Shown piece by piece: positions 18,747-22,672 of a stretch of DNA of 64,000 nucleotides (position 1 is the first letter of the stretch; each line of letters starts with the position of its first letter). Location of the stretch: assembly GCA_965208575.1 (NCBI GenBank), contig CBDBOV010000002.1:32001-96000 (forward strand), read 5' to 3'. The notes under the pieces are model-generated. The model saw only the letters and a list, made by a program, of their open reading frames with translations. It had not been told where the DNA came from and ran no database searches. The translations under genes were made by a program, and so were the position numbers. This stretch comes from Spirochaetia bacterium. GTDB lineage: Bacteria; Spirochaetota; Spirochaetia; SZUA-6; Bin103.

Positions 18747-19412
18747 CCGAGCAGCAACCCAATTCACCGAGGGACCAGCCCGCAGGCTCGGAGTGGAGCT
18801 GGCCCGGGGCGCGCTGGTGGCGCGTCGACCTCCATGCCCACTCCCCGGCGTCCCACGACTTCGGCAGCGAAGCCGACCGGGGCGATCCGGACTGGGTGGC
18901 CTGGATTACCGCTGCCCGTGACGCGGGTCTGGATGCCGTCGCTATTACCGATCACAACACGGCAGCGGGGGTAGGACCTCTCCAGGACGCGGCCTCGCGA
19001 GTGGAGAATAGTCCGGTTCTCTTTCCCGGTGTGGAAGTTACGGCCAGCGATGGCGTTCATCTGATAGTGTTGTTCGACCCGACTTGTAGCGACCAGTACA
19101 TTGAGGACTTTCTTTCCCGAGTGAAGATCCCGGTAGACAAGCGCGGCGATGACACTGCTCGATCATCGTTCAGCGTTGAACAGATTCTCGACGAGTGCCC
19201 CGATGACGCACTCATCGTCGGCCCGCACGTCAACCAGCCACGTGGACTGCTCGACCTCTCCGGGCAGGAACGGCGCGCGGTGTTGCGTCATGCGAGCCTC
19301 GCCGCGGTCGAGGTTGTCCCCGACTACCCTGTCGACGAGTCCTGGATCGACGGCAGCAGGTCGGAGATCGGGCGCAGGCTCCCGAGGCTATGGAGCTCGG
19401 ACAGCCACGCTC
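18743..19412 (+). pseudogene. PHP domain of a PHP-ATPase (Ppl/TrlF-like), N-terminal part, IS-interrupted
   Basis: RVDLHAHSPAS, AITDHNT, FPGVEV, GVHL, SDSH PHP motifs. Confidence 0.85.
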
Positions 19413-20426
19413 CTGAGAAACAACAATCAGGCGGCCTCCGGGACAAGCTCATAACCGAGTGCGTGTGCCTGCCTTCGGAGCCGGCGTTCAAAGCGGCGCC
19501 GGTCCTGGCGCTCCTCGGCGGCGAGGAATCGTAGGCCACGCGATGCGTGATCAGATGGTAGATGATCCGAGCCAGTTTATGCGCGACTGCAGTGGTCGCT
19601 TCGGGAGTACCCAGACGCGCCCGCATGCGGCGGAAGTGCTGGCCCAGGGCCGATGGGCTGCGGTACAACGACTGGGTCGCCCAGTGCAGCGCCTCGATTG
19701 GTGCCCCGACCGGATAGTGTTGTTCGACCCGACTTGTAGCGACCAGTACATTGAGGACTTTCTTTCCCGAGTCCGCATCGATTCCCTCATCCGGTGGGTC
19801 GTCGACCGCGCCGGGTGAGATCCCGGTAGACAAGCGCGGCGATGACACTGCTCGATCATCGTTCAGCGTTGAACAGATTCTCGACGAGTGCCCCGATGAC
19901 GCACTCATCGTCGGCCCGCACGTCAACCAGCCACGTGGACTGCTCGACCTCTCCGGCCGTGGCAGGAACGGCGCGCGGTGTTGCGTCATGCGAGCCTCGC
20001 CGCGGTCGAGGTTGTCCCCGACTACCCTGTCGACGAGTCCTGGATCGACGGCAGCAGGTCGGAGATCGGGCGCAGGCTCCCGAGGCTATGGAGCTCGGAC
20101 AGCCACGCTCCTGAGAAACAACAATCAGGCGGCCTCCGGGACAAGCTCATAACCGAGTGCGTGTGCCTGCCTTCGGAGCCGGCGTTCAAAGCGGCGCCGG
20201 TCCTGGCGCTCCTCGGCGGCGAGGATGCTGTCATCGTAGGCCACGCGATGCGTGATCAGATGGTAGATGATCCGAGCCAGTTTATGCGCGACTGCAGTGG
20301 TCGCTTCGGGAGTACCCAGACGCGCCCGCATGCGGCGGAAGTGCTGGCCCAGGGCCGATGGGCTGCGGTACAACGACTGGGTCGCCCAGTGCAGCGCCTG
20401 GGCGGCCCGATTGGTGCCCCGACCGG
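19063..20426. repeat. Imperfect tandem duplication of PHP tail plus IS110 end (19063-19712 and 19713-20426)
   Basis: Near-identical copies with 7- and 8-bp deletions and a spliced-in piece of IS interior at 19772-19817. Confidence 0.85.
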
Positions 20427-21513
20427 TGTGCGAGCTGATGATCTTGCCGCCGGTGATCTGGTTGTGGGGGCACAGGTGCAGCCAGGAGGCGAATTGCGGT
20501 GCGGTCGGAAAGCGGGACAGTTCCGGGCCGAGTTCGGTGAACAGAACCAGCGCCGTACTTTCGCCGATGCCGGGAATCAGCGTCAGGTCAGTGCCGAACA
20601 GGTGCGTAAGGTGGCCGCGCAGGTCGAACCGCTTGGCCGGTGACTCGGTTGGCGCCTCGGGCTCCGCATCGATTCCCTCATCCGGTGGGTCGTCGCCCAC
20701 CGCGCCGGGTGGCTCGCTGCTGGCTTCGAACGCGCGGATGCCGGCTTCGATTTCCTGATCGCACTCCGTGATGAGTTGTTGGTAGTGGGCATAGGTCGCT
20801 CGCGCGTGCCGCAACGCCAACAGGTGCTCGGCGCGCCAGTCGCCCTGCAGCGCCTTGATCAAGGTCTCGCGGCTGGCTTTGATCCGCCGGTCGGCCAGAG
20901 CGGCCAACCGCGCCGGATCCCGCTCACCCGCCAGGATAGCGTCCGTAATGGCCAGACCGGTCGTCCCCGTCAGGTCAGAGATGGCATGGTGCAGATGCAC
21001 GTTCATCTGGCTGTACGCCTTCTGCATGTGCAACACGCTGCGCGACGCCATCTTGATCAAGGTGTCGCGATGGCGCAGCACCGAGCGCAGTGCACACACC
21101 TCGTCGGCAGGGCGGAATGAGCCGCGCAGCAATCCCACCGAGTGCAGGTAGCGCAACCACTCGCAGTCGGCCACGTCGGACTTCCGACCGGGTACCGAGT
21201 GCACGTGACGCGCATTCACCAGCACCACGTCGAAGCCGTGTGCCTCCAGGATCTGATACACCGGAATCCAGTACACACCGGTGGACTCCATCGCCACCGT
21301 GGTGACCTCGCATTCCTTGAGCCAGTCGGCCAAGGCGTGCAGGTCCGCGGTGAACGTAGCAAAGTTCCGGATCGGGTCCGGGTCGCGCTCCGGGCGCACA
21401 GCCGCGTACACCTCGGTAGCGCCTATGTCCAAGCCGGCAGCGTCCGGGTGCATCACCTTTGGTTGCGCTGTGCGACTGCCCTTGCCCTTGCGTCTGTGTC
21501 TGCGTCGTGCCAT
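20125..21513 (-). CDS. IS110 DEDD recombinase/transposase
   Basis: GLDIG, AMESTGVYW, KSDVADC (DEDD RuvC-like); LIPGIG; TAVAHKLARIIY; GGAGG RBS before ATG 21513. Confidence 0.96.
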   Translation of the reverse strand: MARRRHRRKGKGSRTAQPKVMHPDAAGLDIGATEVYAAVRPERDPDPIRNFATFTADLHALADWLKECEVTTVAMESTGVYWIPVYQILEAHGFDVVLVNARHVHSVPGRKSDVADCEWLRYLHSVGLLRGSFRPADEVCALRSVLRHRDTLIKMASRSVLHMQKAYSQMNVHLHHAISDLTGTTGLAITDAILAGERDPARLAALADRRIKASRETLIKALQGDWRAEHLLALRHARATYAHYQQLITECDQEIEAGIRAFEASSEPPGAVGDDPPDEGIDAEPEAPTESPAKRFDLRGHLTHLFGTDLTLIPGIGESTALVLFTELGPELSRFPTAPQFASWLHLCPHNQITGGKIISSHTGRGTNRAAQALHWATQSLYRSPSALGQHFRRMRARLGTPEATTAVAHKLARIIYHLITHRVAYDDSILAAEERQDRRRFERRLRRQAHALGYELVPEAA

Positions 21514-21529
21514 GAAACCTCCGCTACGA

Positions 21530-21716
21530 CTGAGTGGTGCGGCCAAGGCGTGTGTAGCAGGTATTCTCCTGAACGGGATGATCGCCACCCGGCCGCGCCG
21601 GCTGACAACCTCACCAATGACTACGCCACCCGCCCCGGGGCCAAGCTCTTGAACGGGTTCGCAGAACGTAACGCCAGTGACGCGCCGGCCTACTTTCGCG
21701 CTCCACCCAGAACTCT
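21530..21716 (-). ncRNA. Predicted IS110 bridge RNA (target- and donor-binding loops); ends approximate
   Basis: Two repeated modules GTCA(C/T)TGG...CCCGTTCA(A/G)GAG whose loops match the reconstructed target (8 nt) and donor (7 nt); TATAGT -10-like hexamer at 21723-21728. Confidence 0.8.
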
Positions 21717-21783
21717 GCCCACACTATAGCTCACCCTTGTTTCTTTCATGACTGCGCCGGCCCAGGGGCCGGTGGGATAGCTC

Positions 21784-22028
21784 TTGATCAGGTCGGCCGA
21801 CGATTCACGTGGATCAAGATGACCAGACCGGATGCCGGTGGTCTGCGCCTGGCGCTTCTCGACGGGGACGGTTCGGTACGGCCGACGGCGGCCGGTGATG
21901 CGGTCCACCCAAATTCTCATGCTGCATCGGCAATTGAGAGCATCCGCATCCACAAGGCCAAGTACCTGGGGCGCTCGGAGCCGCTGACCGTCCCGTTCAA
22001 CCCGTGGTTCAACACGATCATCGGCGGA
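21784..22028 (+). pseudogene. Continuation of the PHP-ATPase after the IS, truncated at Walker A
   Basis: DQVGRRFTWIKMTRP...LRLALLDG...FNPWFNTIIGG, then similarity ends. Confidence 0.82.
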
Positions 22029-22672
22029 TCGTGGGGAGCGATCCCGACGGTGTCACGCGCCTGACGTTGGCGGGCACTCTTCTGTGCACGTCGAGGCCGC
22101 AGGAGTGGTTGCCCCATGCTCAGATTCAGGCGGTGAGCTATGCAGGCGAGCGCCACGACGTAAACTACCAGACGGACGCGCGTGACATGGATGGCCCGCT
22201 GGACGTACAGATTGGGGACGCCTTGCACTTCGTGCGACGGAACATGCTCGTGCGCGCCACGAAAGTTACCGCCCGGGTGGAGCGGCCGCAATTCAGCGAG
22301 CGCGCGGTGTTCGAGGCGCTGGTGAACGCCGTGGCCCACCGAGACTACTCGATGGCAGGTGCTCGCGTTCGACTGCACCTGTTTGCCGATCGACTGGAGC
22401 TGTACGTGCCCGGAGATCTGGTCAATACGCTTACGATCGACAGCCTGCATCTGCGCCAGGCCAACCGTAATGAATTGATCGTGTCGCTGCTCGGACGCTG
22501 TCCTGCACCGGGCGGTCTCGGCCGCTCCCATCTCATGGACCGACGCGGGGACGGCGTTCCGATCATTCGGCGGGAGTGTCGAGAGTTGTCGGGCCGGCTT
22601 CCGGAATACGAACTGATCGATGACAGCGAGCTGCGCCTCATCATCCGCGCGGCGAATCCGGTTGAGCAGTAA
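22025..22672 (+). pseudogene. C-terminal HATPase_c_4 (RecG-C-like) fragment of an AlbA_2/Schlafen-type ATP-binding protein
   Basis: VFEALVNAVAHRDYS, DRLELYVPG, RNELIVSLL, MDRRGDGV; N-terminus missing. Confidence 0.8.

What the first reader, a model, noticed from the sequence alone, without database searches (positions are those of the whole stretch)
21514..21783. IS110 bridge RNA with readable target and donor guides
Seen: excising the IS gives the target ...AGCCAC-GCTC-TTGATC... and the circle junction ...GGGATA-GCTC-CTGAGA... The 270-bp non-coding end contains GCTCTTGA (21645-21652, 8/8 to target) and CTCCTGA (21566-21572, 7/7 to donor), each followed by ACGGG. On the minus-strand RNA each sits on the 3' side of an internal loop in a repeated GTCA(C/T)TGG-hairpin-CCCGTTCA(A/G)GAG module. 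The 5' sides carry CGCG (21681-21684) and GTAG (21621-21624), which match target CACG and donor ATAG with one G:T wobble each. A TATAGT hexamer at 21723-21728 would give an RNA of about 185 nt. Known: IS110 recombinases use a bispecific bridge RNA (IS621). Inference: a programmable recombinase with deducible specificity; the short guide lies 5' of the long guide, which I recall as opposite to the IS621 layout.
Basis: partly seen in the sequence, partly recalled or inferred. Interest (0 to 1): 0.85.

Follow-up and report, generated by a model that had tools for sequence, protein, structure and literature searches.

The report
Flipped-layout IS110 bridge RNA
The non-coding end of a 15-copy insertion sequence encodes a two-loop guide RNA whose loops spell out its insertion site and its own end, a known kind of system, but with the guides in the opposite order to the studied examples.

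Summary
Window 20108-21782 is an IS110-family insertion sequence: a 462-aa DEDD/Transposase_20 recombinase on the minus strand, present as 15 identical copies in this genome.

The 14 independent insertion sites share (C)TCAAG-AG on the side next to the non-coding end, read on the gene-sense strand. A tandem dimer shows the predicted end-to-end junction.

In 22 aligned relatives (42-69% protein identity) the non-coding end folds into two stem/internal-loop/hairpin modules. 94% of cells pair and 14 of 25 pairs show compensatory changes.

- The 3' strand of loop 1 copies the left flank plus the core AG plus the first two bases of the element.
- The 3' strand of loop 2 copies the right end (95 of 95 positions).
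- The 5' strand of loop 1 pairs with the right flank in relatives. In this element that guide is weak.
- The short donor guide is unsupported.

The long flank-identical guide lies 3' of the hairpin and the core reads AG on the sense strand. This reverses IS621 and ISEc21 and matches the order reported for IS1111-type seekRNAs.

Transcription is unproven. Verdict: a bridge RNA, a layout variant of a known system.

The parts
20108..20109 (.). Core dinucleotide CT (AG on the gene-sense strand) at the right-end junction. Base 20107 to its left is the first right-flank base and varies between copies.
   Evidence: Flanks of the 15 copies. AG is the only dinucleotide shared by flank and end in all relatives.
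20110..20116 (-). Right end of the element (left donor, sense TCTCAGG before AG). Its last bases TCAGG+AG are identical to the 3' strand of loop 2.
   Evidence: The last 5 bases before AG equal the loop-2 guide at 95 of 95 positions in 19 relatives, with 6 different 5-mers.
20114..20121 (.). Right-end arm (sense TTGTTTCT) of an 8-bp inverted repeat. Its partner lies at 21737-21744.
   Evidence: an inverted repeat of 6-9 bp at the same two positions in 20 of 20 loci examined, with 5 sequence variants.
20125..21513 (-). Recombinase gene, 462 aa (P0001), of the IS110 family.
   Evidence: IS621 transposase is the only PDB match, E 1.3e-7.
21518..21522 (-). GGAGG ribosome-binding site, 4 nt before the ATG at 21513.
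   Evidence: Sequence reading. N-termini of relatives align from this ATG.
21543..21690 (-). Structured core of the predicted bridge RNA, made of two stem / internal loop / hairpin modules. Loop 1 spans 21639-21690 and loop 2 spans 21543-21638.
   Evidence: Alignment A1 of 22 sequences. Named structure of 25 pairs: 94.3% of cells paired against 31-48% when slid; 14 pairs with compensatory change; covariation 0.432 against 0.226 in shuffles, 0 of 500 as high. Coordinates.
21644..21653 (-). Loop 1, 3' strand UUCAAGAGCU. It holds the target guide (UCAAG), the core AG and the handshake CU, and is identical to the left junction TCAAG-AG-CT.
   Evidence: flank against own guide 100 of 115 positions in 23 loci (other elements' guides 1.92 of 5); the 2 nt after AG against the element's first 2 nt, 45 of 46.
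21677..21685 (-). Loop 1, 5' strand GCGCGUCAC.
   Evidence: In 21 acidobacterial relatives the homologous 5-mer pairs with right-flank bases 1-5: 4.71 of 5 against 2.98 of 5 for mismatched pairings, with variants GCCGA/TCGGC, GGGGA/TCCCC, GGCGA/TCGCT. In this element the sites show only Y at base 1 (12 of 14) and G at base 2 (8 of 14).
21564..21573 (-). Loop 2, 3' strand UUCAGGAGAA. It holds the donor guide (UCAGG) and the core AG, identical to the right end TCAGG-AG.
21617..21626 (-). Loop 2, 5' strand GCGUAGUCAU. GUAGU could pair with G-CTAT (core G plus the first 4 bases of the element) using two G:U/G:T wobbles.
   Evidence: this pairing is found in the window, but no consistent pairing with the left end is seen in 15 representatives. 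Unsupported.
21723..21728 (-). TATAGT, a candidate -10 hexamer, 33 nt upstream of the loop-1 stem.
   Evidence: Sequence. By eye, TAnnnT hexamers lie 21-33 nt upstream of the loop-1 stem in L022, L023 and L028. The sigma-70 consensus scan found no promoter and there is no RNA evidence.
21737..21744 (.). Left-end arm (sense AGAAACAA, element positions +37 to +44) of the inverted repeat with 20114-20121.
21771..21780 (-). First 10 bases of the element on the gene-sense strand (right donor, CTATCCCACC).
21781..21782 (.). Core dinucleotide CT (sense AG) at the left-end junction.
21783..21788 (.). Target half-site in the host flank (+ strand CTTGAT; sense ATCAAG). The consensus of the 14 sites is C-TCAAG before AG.
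   Evidence: C precedes TCAAGAG in 11 of 14 occupied sites, against 93 of 332 empty TCAAGAG sites.

Best explanation
Window 20108-21782 is an active IS110-family insertion sequence. Its 270-bp left end (upstream of the recombinase gene, minus strand) encodes a bridge RNA of about 150-180 nt with two internal loops.

Loop 1 binds the target. Its 3' strand UCAAG-AG-CU has the sequence of the gene-sense strand of the left flank, the core and the element's first two bases. It would therefore pair with the opposite strand of the target half-site, and after strand exchange with the new left junction (a handshake). Its 5' strand carries a short, weak guide for the right flank.

Loop 2 binds the donor. 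Its 3' strand UCAGG-AG copies the right end of the element.

The recombinase would bring target and abutted ends together and exchange strands at the core, as shown for IS621.

Relative to IS621 and ISEc21 the layout is flipped. The long flank-identical guide is 3' of the hairpin, and the core reads AG, not CT, on the strand that carries the genes. If the CT strand is taken as top, the RNA has the IS621 plan: the 3' strand is guide, then AG, then two handshake bases. The genes then lie inverted relative to the core.

Shown here: copies, insertion sites, sequence identities, covariation.
Inferred: transcription, RNA-protein complex, chemistry, and the strand mapping onto IS621.
For: - Family: Pfam DEDD_Tnp_IS110 (6e-20) and Transposase_20 (1.5e-11); NCBIfam NF033542 251 bits, cut-off 140; IS621 transposase is the only PDB hit.
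- Activity and specificity: 15 identical copies at 14 independent sites sharing TCAAG-AG, plus one tandem dimer with the predicted junction.
- Fold: 25 named pairs on 22 sequences, 94.3% paired against 31-48% when slid; 14 pairs with compensatory change; 0 of 500 shuffles reach the covariation score.
- Guide-DNA covariation: left flank against loop-1 guide 100 of 115 (cross 1.92 of 5); 2 nt after AG against the element's first 2 nt 45 of 46 (cross 0.41 of 2); right end against loop-2 guide 95 of 95, with 6 variants.
- An unanchored test on 40 loci: own guide 6.45 of 8, others 5.12 of 8.
- Right-flank guide in relatives: 4.71 of 5 against 2.98 of 5, with three compensating variants.
- The same layout occurs in 32-33% identical relatives on Streptomyces and Caballeronia plasmids.
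- IS621 layout, from passages of PMC11208158: LTG 50-58 is 5' of the stem-loop; RTG 77-80 is 3', with G80 pairing core C8; handshake bases 81-82 follow directly.
- A Citrobacter relative has core AA. This keeps the base that corresponds to the near-invariant T of IS621's CT.
Against: - No evidence of transcription. The sigma-70 scan found no promoter. Two raw-read RNA runs gave 0 reads. Metatranscriptome contigs covered only parts of the recombinase gene and none of 21331-21850.
- The single-sequence fold is no better than shuffles (z -0.91).
- No Rfam family matches, even at E up to 10.
- The 5' strand of loop 2 shows no consistent pairing with the element's left end in 15 representatives. 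Half of the donor recognition is therefore unexplained.
- In the register of the relatives, the window's 5'-strand 5-mer CGCGU does not fit its right flanks. It fits only when shifted by one base, and then weakly.
- C before TCAAGAG is preferred (11 of 14) although the RNA has U there; a T, which would give a U:A pair, is never seen.
- The residue aligned with the IS621 Ser of the ESG motif is Thr here.
- I set the left-end junctions of the relatives used by eye, knowing the guides. This favours the 'own' counts, although conserved left-end sequences within clades agree with them.
Confidence: 0.85

Rival explanations
1. The two CCCGTTCA(A/G)GAG repeats act as DNA, as subterminal binding sites for the recombinase. 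Their likeness to flank and end would then reflect protein-DNA recognition of similar sites, with no guide RNA.
For: No transcript is shown. The elements also carry a covarying inverted repeat at the DNA level. A base outside the guide logic (C before TCAAGAG) is preferred.
Against: Fourteen of 25 stem pairs change on both sides and stay paired, which a DNA binding site does not require. The variable bases track flank and end base for base across relatives whose recombinases differ little in the relevant motifs. The protein family is shown experimentally to be RNA-guided (PMC11208160, PMC11187229, passages).
Confidence: 0.04
2. Only loop 1 is a guide, like a short seekRNA of 70-100 nt. On this view, loop 2 is a leader structure that controls translation of the recombinase, and its match to the right end is incidental or serves another step such as excision.
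For: Siddiquee et al. found a short RNA holding only the target matches to be the abundant and sufficient form (PMC11187229, passages). Loop 2 ends 21 nt before the ribosome-binding site. Its 5' strand has no supported partner. Its two bases after AG do not match the right flanks in the window.
Against: The loop-2 guide equals the right end at 95 of 95 positions with 6 variants. Loop 2 has the same module plan and compensatory pairs as loop 1.
Confidence: 0.08
3. The stretch 21514-21588 is coding. The longest open frame starts at GTG 21588 (487 aa), so part of the 'RNA' would be an N-terminal extension of the recombinase.
For: the ORF listing gives 20125..21588 as an open frame.
Against: A GGAGG site lies 4 nt before ATG 21513. 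Relatives align from that Met. In relatives the upstream stretch varies by compensatory pairs and length changes in the hairpin, not by codons.
Confidence: 0.02

Closest known systems
IS621 bridge RNA (Durrant et al. 2024, PMC11208160; Hiraizumi et al. 2024, PMC11208158; passages read)
   Same: - The RNA is encoded in the left end, upstream of a DEDD/Ser-type recombinase.
- There are two internal loops, one for the target and one for the donor, each interrupted by a hairpin.
- The guides overlap a 2-nt core.
- The 3' strand of the loop reads guide, then AG, then two handshake bases.
- The size is similar: IS621's loops span nt 34-177, and here about 148 nt hold both loops.
   Different: - On the gene-sense strand the core is AG, not CT.
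- The guide identical to the left flank or right end is 3' of the hairpin, not 5'.
- The long guide (5-6 nt plus core plus 2) sits where IS621 has its 4-nt RTG, and the short one where IS621 has its 9-nt LTG.
- The candidate -10 lies 52-57 nt inside the left end, so a promoter made by joining the ends is not evident.
- The protein is 462 aa against 326 and only distantly related (E 1.3e-7).
- Thr stands at the position aligned with the catalytic Ser.
- There is no Rfam hit.
ISEc21 seekRNA, IS110 type (Siddiquee et al. 2024, PMC11187229; passages; sequence read from NZ_LT903847.1)
   Same: The non-coding region is upstream of the transposase gene. The RNA carries matches to both strands of the target. 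Insertion is site-specific without duplication.
   Different: In ISEc21 the bottom-strand match is 5' of the top-strand match (paper). Here the order is the reverse. The proteins are barely alignable (blastp E 0.005).
IS1111-type seekRNAs (ISEc11, ISKpn4, ISPa11: PMC11187229; IS4321 of plasmid R751 read here)
   Same: The segment complementary to the top strand lies 5' of the segment identical to it (paper). By my own reading, IS4321 has AAAACGGAAA, then a hairpin, then UAUUUUC. Subterminal inverted repeats are present.
   Different: [quoted passage not shown] Here it lies upstream, with a right end of about 15 nt. The left arm of the inverted repeat here is 37-44 nt inside the end. P0001 against IS4321 gives blastp E 1.6e-7 over 125 aa.
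ISPpu10 bridge RNA (bioRxiv 10.64898/2026.03.19.712850; passages)
   Same: A natural multi-copy IS110-group element whose two-loop bridge RNA explains a short genomic target.
   Different: ISPpu10 follows the IS621 plan, with a CT core and a junction promoter, and it also needs a stem-loop in its REP target. The 14 sites here share nothing beyond about 10 nt.

Membership tests
IS110 family insertion sequences | Recombinase with an N-terminal DEDD (RuvC-like) domain and a C-terminal Transposase_20 domain | tested here: met
   PF01548 at residues 26-166 and PF02371 at residues 310-385. NF033542 scores 251 bits, cut-off 140. D29, E76, D113 and D116 lie in conserved motifs.
IS110 family insertion sequences | Serine nucleophile in the C-terminal domain (S241 of IS621) | tested here: inconclusive
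   The aligned residue is T354 in P0001 (the mapping assumes a 2-residue tag in the PDB chain). Among 37 related loci the column is S in 33 and T in 4. The 15 identical copies argue that the Thr form is active.
IS110 family insertion sequences | Site-specific insertion without terminal inverted repeats or target duplication beyond a shared core | tested here: met
   14 independent sites share TCAAG-AG. Only CT(C) is common to both junctions.
IS110 family insertion sequences | Circular or abutted-end intermediate | tested here: inconclusive
   The abutted junction is seen only as the joint of a tandem dimer in the assembly. No circle-specific reads were examined.
IS621-type bridge RNA | Non-coding RNA in the left end with two internal loops closed by stems, each holding a hairpin | tested here: met
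   structure covariation; coordinates.
IS621-type bridge RNA | Loop 1 covaries with the target and loop 2 with the donor, each loop reading both strands | tested here: inconclusive
   Met for both 3' strands and for the 5' strand of loop 1 in relatives. Not met for the 5' strand of loop 2. Weak for the 5' strand of loop 1 in the window.
IS621-type bridge RNA | The guide identical to the left flank or right end (LTG/LDG) lies 5' of the hairpin; the guide complementary to the top strand (RTG/RDG) lies 3' | tested here: not met
   Here the flank-identical guides are 3' of the hairpins. IS621 positions are from PMC11208158.
IS621-type bridge RNA | CT core on the strand that carries the RNA and recombinase genes | tested here: not met
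   The sense-strand core is AG in the window and relatives, and AA in a Citrobacter relative.
IS621-type bridge RNA | Two handshake bases directly after the core-pairing AG of the 3' strand, matching the other DNA partner | tested here: met
   Loop 1: 45 of 46 positions match the element's first two bases. Loop 2 in the window (AA) does not match the right flanks. The wild-type IS621 handshake is also imperfect.
IS621-type bridge RNA | Promoter rebuilt across the joined ends | tested here: not met
   The only -10-like hexamer lies 52-57 nt inside the left end. The consensus scan found nothing.
IS1111-type seekRNA | Non-coding region and RNA downstream of the transposase gene | tested here: not met
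   The stop codon ends 15 nt from the right-end core, and the 270-nt non-coding region is upstream.
IS1111-type seekRNA | Top-strand complement lies 5' of the bottom-strand match | tested here: met
   The definition is from PMC11187229.
IS1111-type seekRNA | Subterminal inverted repeats of 7-17 bp close to both ends | tested here: inconclusive
   A covarying 6-9 bp inverted repeat is present in 20 of 20 loci, but its left arm lies 32-45 nt inside the left end.

The most novel reading that the evidence does not exclude
The window's element represents a large cross-phylum clade of left-end-encoded bridge systems (Acidobacteriota, Pseudomonadota, Actinomycetota plasmids and others). In this clade the recombination core and the guides are inverted relative to the genes. 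The sense-strand core is AG. The long, handshake-bearing guide lies 3' of the hairpin and reads the flank next to the RNA gene.

This would be a natural 'flipped' architecture that links the IS110-type and IS1111-type layouts by a simple inversion of the cargo relative to the donor site. It runs, in this element, with threonine in place of the catalytic serine. It has not been described as such in the text of the papers I could search.
Probability: 0.35. Interest if true: 0.6.

Novelty: new variant of a known kind. Interest (0 to 1): 0.45.

Why it matters
Bridge and seek RNAs are under development as programmable recombinases. Nearly all mechanistic knowledge comes from IS621-like elements with a CT core on the sense strand and the long guide on the 5' side.

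A natural, evidently active system (15 identical copies) uses the same scaffold with the element turned round relative to the core. Here a 7-8 nt guide on the RTG-like side carries most of the specificity. This shows which features of the architecture are free to vary. It also offers a test of how guide length on each side sets specificity, and it bears on how the IS110 and IS1111 layouts are related.

For annotation, it gives a rule for reading target and ends of this clade: CCCG + 6-7 nt + AG + 2 nt. Rfam does not cover this clade.

The kind of system itself is already known. For a specialist the presence of a bridge RNA in an IS110 element is expected.

Tried and rejected
- Rfam scan of 19500-22500 at E up to 10: no match.
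- Single-sequence folds of the 270-nt and 177-nt stretches: z -0.91 each, uninformative in this G+C-rich sequence.
- Promoter and terminator consensus scan of 21400-21900: nothing.
- RNAalifold on the MAFFT alignment gave only 17 pairs because the hairpins align poorly. I therefore named a structure by hand and counted it.
- Expression: one run search and one lay. Raw-read RNA runs X23 and X24 gave 0 reads, which is no test because the organism is not shown to be in them. Contigs of metatranscriptomes X15 and X16 (95-99% alike) lay only on parts of the recombinase gene and none on 21331-21850. This is neither support nor refutation.
- Pairing of the loop-2 5' strand with the element's left end: the window's GGUGGCGUAG against CTATCCCACC looked good (9 of 10). 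However, GUG of it belongs to a covarying stem, and no relative shows a consistent pairing. Rejected as evidence.
- Register of the loop-1 5' guide: the relatives' register (5-mer directly before CA) does not fit the window's right flanks.
- Phylogenetic placement between the IS110 and IS1111 groups: not attempted. Only ISEc21, IS4321 and (as a printed alignment) IS621 were at hand, and all are about equally distant.
- ISEc11 could not be fetched.
- Literature: no held paper contains 'IS110', 'bridge RNA' and 'reverse order' together. A search for bridge RNA with Streptomyces/IS900/IS116/IS1110 found no description of this clade's RNA.
- Figures and supplements (Durrant Fig. 6d, Extended Data Fig. 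10c, Supplementary Data) were not visible and may show this layout.
- The protein database searches, structure prediction, complex prediction and atlas search were not used.
Full report
**What is there.**

The window's minus strand carries a 462-aa open frame, 21513-20125 (P0001). It has Pfam DEDD_Tnp_IS110 at residues 26-166 and Transposase_20 at residues 310-385. It matches NCBIfam NF033542, 'IS110 family RNA-guided transposase', at 251 bits against a cut-off of 140. Its only relative among solved structures is the IS621 transposase (8wt6_A, E 1.3e-7). A GGAGG lies 4 nt before the ATG. The right end is about 15 nt.

**Copies and insertion sites.**

The window's genome is 6.50 Mb in 6 contigs, with G+C 0.67-0.68. 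It holds 15 full copies at 100% identity. The 1669-bp interior occurs 15 times exactly. Two copies form a head-to-tail dimer at C4:1265902-1269243. That leaves 14 independent target sites.

Read on the gene-sense strand, the flank next to the left end is always TCAAGAG. It is preceded by C in 11 sites, G in 2 and A in 1. The base after the right end's ...CTCAGGAG is C in 9, T in 3, G in 1 and A in 1. The next base is G in 8 of 14, and further bases vary.

Hence the four-base repeat GCTC is not a core. Its G is the element's first base on one side and a variable flank base on the other.

The genome has 346 TCAAGAG sites (354 expected from composition), of which 14 are occupied. C precedes the heptamer in 93 of 332 empty sites.

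**Relatives and the fold.**

A scan of one genome per species found 52 loci encoding relatives (42-69% identity), mostly in Acidobacteriota MAGs and also in several Pseudomonadota lineages and others. Upstream of most of these genes the same plan recurs: twice over, a stem, a variable 5' strand, YUGG, a hairpin, CCCG, 6-7 variable bases, AG, two more bases, and the closing stem.

I aligned 22 of them (A1). RNAalifold recovered only 17 pairs. I named 25 pairs in five helices and counted them:
- 94.3% of 547 cells pair, against 31-48% when the partners are slid by 1-3 columns.
- 14 pairs have changes on both sides.
- The covariation score is 0.432 against 0.226 in shuffles (0 of 500 as high).

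In window coordinates, the modules are:

| Part | Loop 1 | Loop 2 |
|---|---|---|
| Outer stem | 21690-21686 / 21643-21639 | 21638-21633 / 21548-21543 |
| Closing stem | none | 21629-21627 / 21563-21561 |
| 5' strand | 21685-21677 | 21626-21617 |
| Hairpin | 21676-21654 | 21616-21574 |
| 3' strand | 21653-21644 | 21573-21564 |

The single-sequence fold is not better than shuffles. No Rfam model matches.

**Guides.**

Of the 41 loci (the window included) in which I had located both modules, I set the left junction by eye for 24. The other 17 were left out of this count. The LT strings of 23 were long enough to use.

- The five bases before AG in the flank equal the five bases before AG in the loop-1 3' strand at 100 of 115 positions. 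Guides of other element types match 1.92 of 5.
- The two RNA bases after AG equal the element's own first two bases at 45 of 46 positions (variants CU, CG, UC, UU, CA; cross 0.41 of 2).
- In the 19 of these loci for which I also placed a right-end junction, the five bases before AG at the right end equal the loop-2 3' strand at 95 of 95 positions, with six different 5-mers.

I knew the guides when I set the junctions, which favours the own counts. Conserved left-end starts within clades and the 15 copies in the window's genome support the junctions. An unanchored best-match test on 40 loci also separates own guides (6.45 of 8) from foreign ones (5.12 of 8).

In 21 acidobacterial relatives the 5-mer at the end of the loop-1 5' strand pairs with right-flank bases 1-5. 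The score is 4.71 of 5, against 2.98 of 5 for pairings with other guides. The compensating variants are GCCGA/TCGGC (13 loci), GGGGA/TCCCC (2, plus 1 TCCCG), GGCGA/TCGCT and CGGGA/TCCCA. So loop 1 reads both strands of the target, as in known bridge RNAs.

**The window's own guides.**

- Loop 1, 3' strand: UUCAAGAGCU = (U)+UCAAG+AG+CU. This is identical to the left junction TCAAG-AG-CT.
- Loop 2, 3' strand: UUCAGGAGAA = (U)+UCAGG+AG+AA. This is identical to the right end TCAGG-AG.

The sites show Y at base 1 in 12 of 14 and G at base 2 in 8 of 14, with little beyond. That register is one base off the relatives' register.

The short donor guide GUAG(U) can pair with G-CTAT using two wobbles. 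No relative shows a consistent equivalent, and the neighbouring GUG belongs to a stem. I regard CGCG as plausible but weak, and GUAG as unsupported.

**Layout against known systems.**

In IS621 the TBL runs as follows (PMC11208158 passages):
1. Stem.
2. LTG, A50-U58. It pairs with the bottom strand, so it has the sequence of left target plus CT.
3. Stem-loop.
4. RTG, G77-G80. It pairs with the top strand, with G80 opposite core C8.
5. Handshake bases 81-82.
6. Stem.

The products are LT-RD and LD-RT, with RE-LE as the donor (PMC11208160 passages). So the left target abuts the end that encodes the RNA. ISEc21 has the same order, bottom-strand match first (PMC11187229). My reading of its sequence agrees. 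ISPpu10 and IS622 are described with the IS621 logic and a CT core.

Here the guide with the sequence of the left flank plus core is 3' of the hairpin, and the core on the gene-sense strand is AG. That is the order Siddiquee et al. report for IS1111-type seekRNAs: top-strand complement first. I see the same order in IS4321 of R751. But those RNAs lie downstream of the gene.

**A simple reading reconciles the layouts.**

In IS621, in ISEc21 and here, the 3' strand of the loop is 'guide, complement of the core, two handshake bases'. Here its AG would pair with CT on the antisense strand. With the CT strand as top, the RNA has the IS621 plan, and the genes lie inverted relative to the core.

A Citrobacter plasmid relative (46% identity) has AA in place of AG. 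This keeps the base that corresponds to the nearly invariant T of IS621's CT.

This mapping is inference. It needs cleavage mapping.

The layout is not peculiar to the window. Relatives of 32-33% identity on a Streptomyces and a Caballeronia plasmid show CCCG-UAGGUC-AG-UC beside the flank GATAGGTCAG|TC, and CCCG-UUUGAG-AG-UU beside CTTGAGAG|TG.

**What is not shown.**

- Transcription is not shown. TATAGT at 21728-21723 is a plausible -10, and similar hexamers stand at like distances in relatives, by eye. The consensus scan found no promoter. The hexamer is too far inside the left end for a promoter rebuilt by joining the ends.
- The RNA libraries I could lay gave no reads, or only recombinase-gene contigs of a close relative.
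- Donor recognition on the left-end side is unexplained.
- The preference for C before TCAAGAG is not explained by the U in the RNA.

**Known or new.**

That IS110-family elements use a bispecific bridge or seek RNA is established (2024 papers), and NCBI already names the protein family accordingly. The reverse guide order is in print for IS1111-type elements. Durrant et al. state that bridge RNA structures are diverse.

I found no text describing a left-end-encoded RNA with this order or an AG sense-strand core (searches; passages). Figures and supplements were not visible, and the large surveys very likely contain this clade.

I file it as a new variant of a known kind, of moderate interest.

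Noticed in passing
G000:C4:1265902-1269243 (own genome, outside the window): Two copies of the element lie head to tail, separated only by GCTC. This gives the donor (abutted-end) junction in chromosomal DNA. The left junction of a resident copy keeps the full TCAAG-AG half-site, so a second insertion there is one way to make the dimer.
   Followed up: partly
window 19207-19817: A degraded second copy lies just beside the element. Window 19207-19694 repeats 19900-20399 at 98% with two small deletions (207 nt of host flank plus the first ~290 nt of the element's right-end side). Two short internal fragments follow. This is a local duplication of flank plus element, followed by decay.
   Followed up: partly
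window 20452-20454 (codon of T354 of P0001): The residue aligned with the Ser of IS621's ESG motif (S241, if the PDB chain carries a 2-residue tag) is Thr. Among 37 related loci the column is Ser in 33 and Thr in 4. An element with 15 identical copies thus seems to work with Thr at the presumed nucleophile position.
   Followed up: partly
window 20114-20121 and 21737-21744: An 8-bp inverted repeat (TTGTTTCT / AGAAACAA) lies between the right end (6 nt from the end) and the left end (37-44 nt inside). An equivalent 6-9 bp repeat sits at the same two positions in 20 of 20 loci, with five sequence variants. Its function is unknown. It lies upstream of the candidate -10.
   Followed up: partly
window 21789 and the equivalent base of the other 13 sites: C precedes TCAAGAG in 11 of 14 occupied sites, against 28% of empty sites. 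T is never seen, although the RNA has U at that position. The right end also has C there in all relatives. This looks like a base read by something other than Watson-Crick pairing with the guide.
   Followed up: partly
window 21566-21572 versus 21646-21652: Target half-site and right end differ by one base (TCAAGAG against TCAGGAG). The donor guide UCAGGAG could pair with the target's opposite strand through one G:T wobble, so loop 2 might also bind targets. This may be relevant to the half-match recombination reported for IS621 (abstract of bioRxiv 10.64898/2026.08.31.748434).
   Followed up: no
L022:2581-2800: The closest relative (69% identity) sits directly beside a partial copy of a related left end. 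That partial copy breaks off just after its own loop-1 guide (CCCGTAAAGAAGT...), as if an element had inserted into the guide-coding DNA of another copy, which by construction resembles the target (by eye).
   Followed up: no
L024-L065 (acidobacterial relatives), left flanks: Their left flanks share a longer conserved string (GAT..GTaCCGAnAAG) across different genomes. These relatives seem to target a repeated or conserved host sequence.
   Followed up: no
L077 (Citrobacter freundii plasmid CP132326.1:107292-109996): A 46% identical relative, present on 61 Citrobacter plasmid records in the tblastn tally. It lies after the string ...GACATATTAAAAAA, which looks like an IS3-family transposase frame. 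Its core is AA and it stands next to an IS66-family gene.
   Followed up: partly
whole element, window 20107-21783: The run index lists 14 public runs holding half or more of the element's sampled words. They include runs labelled coral reef and sponge metagenome.
   Followed up: no
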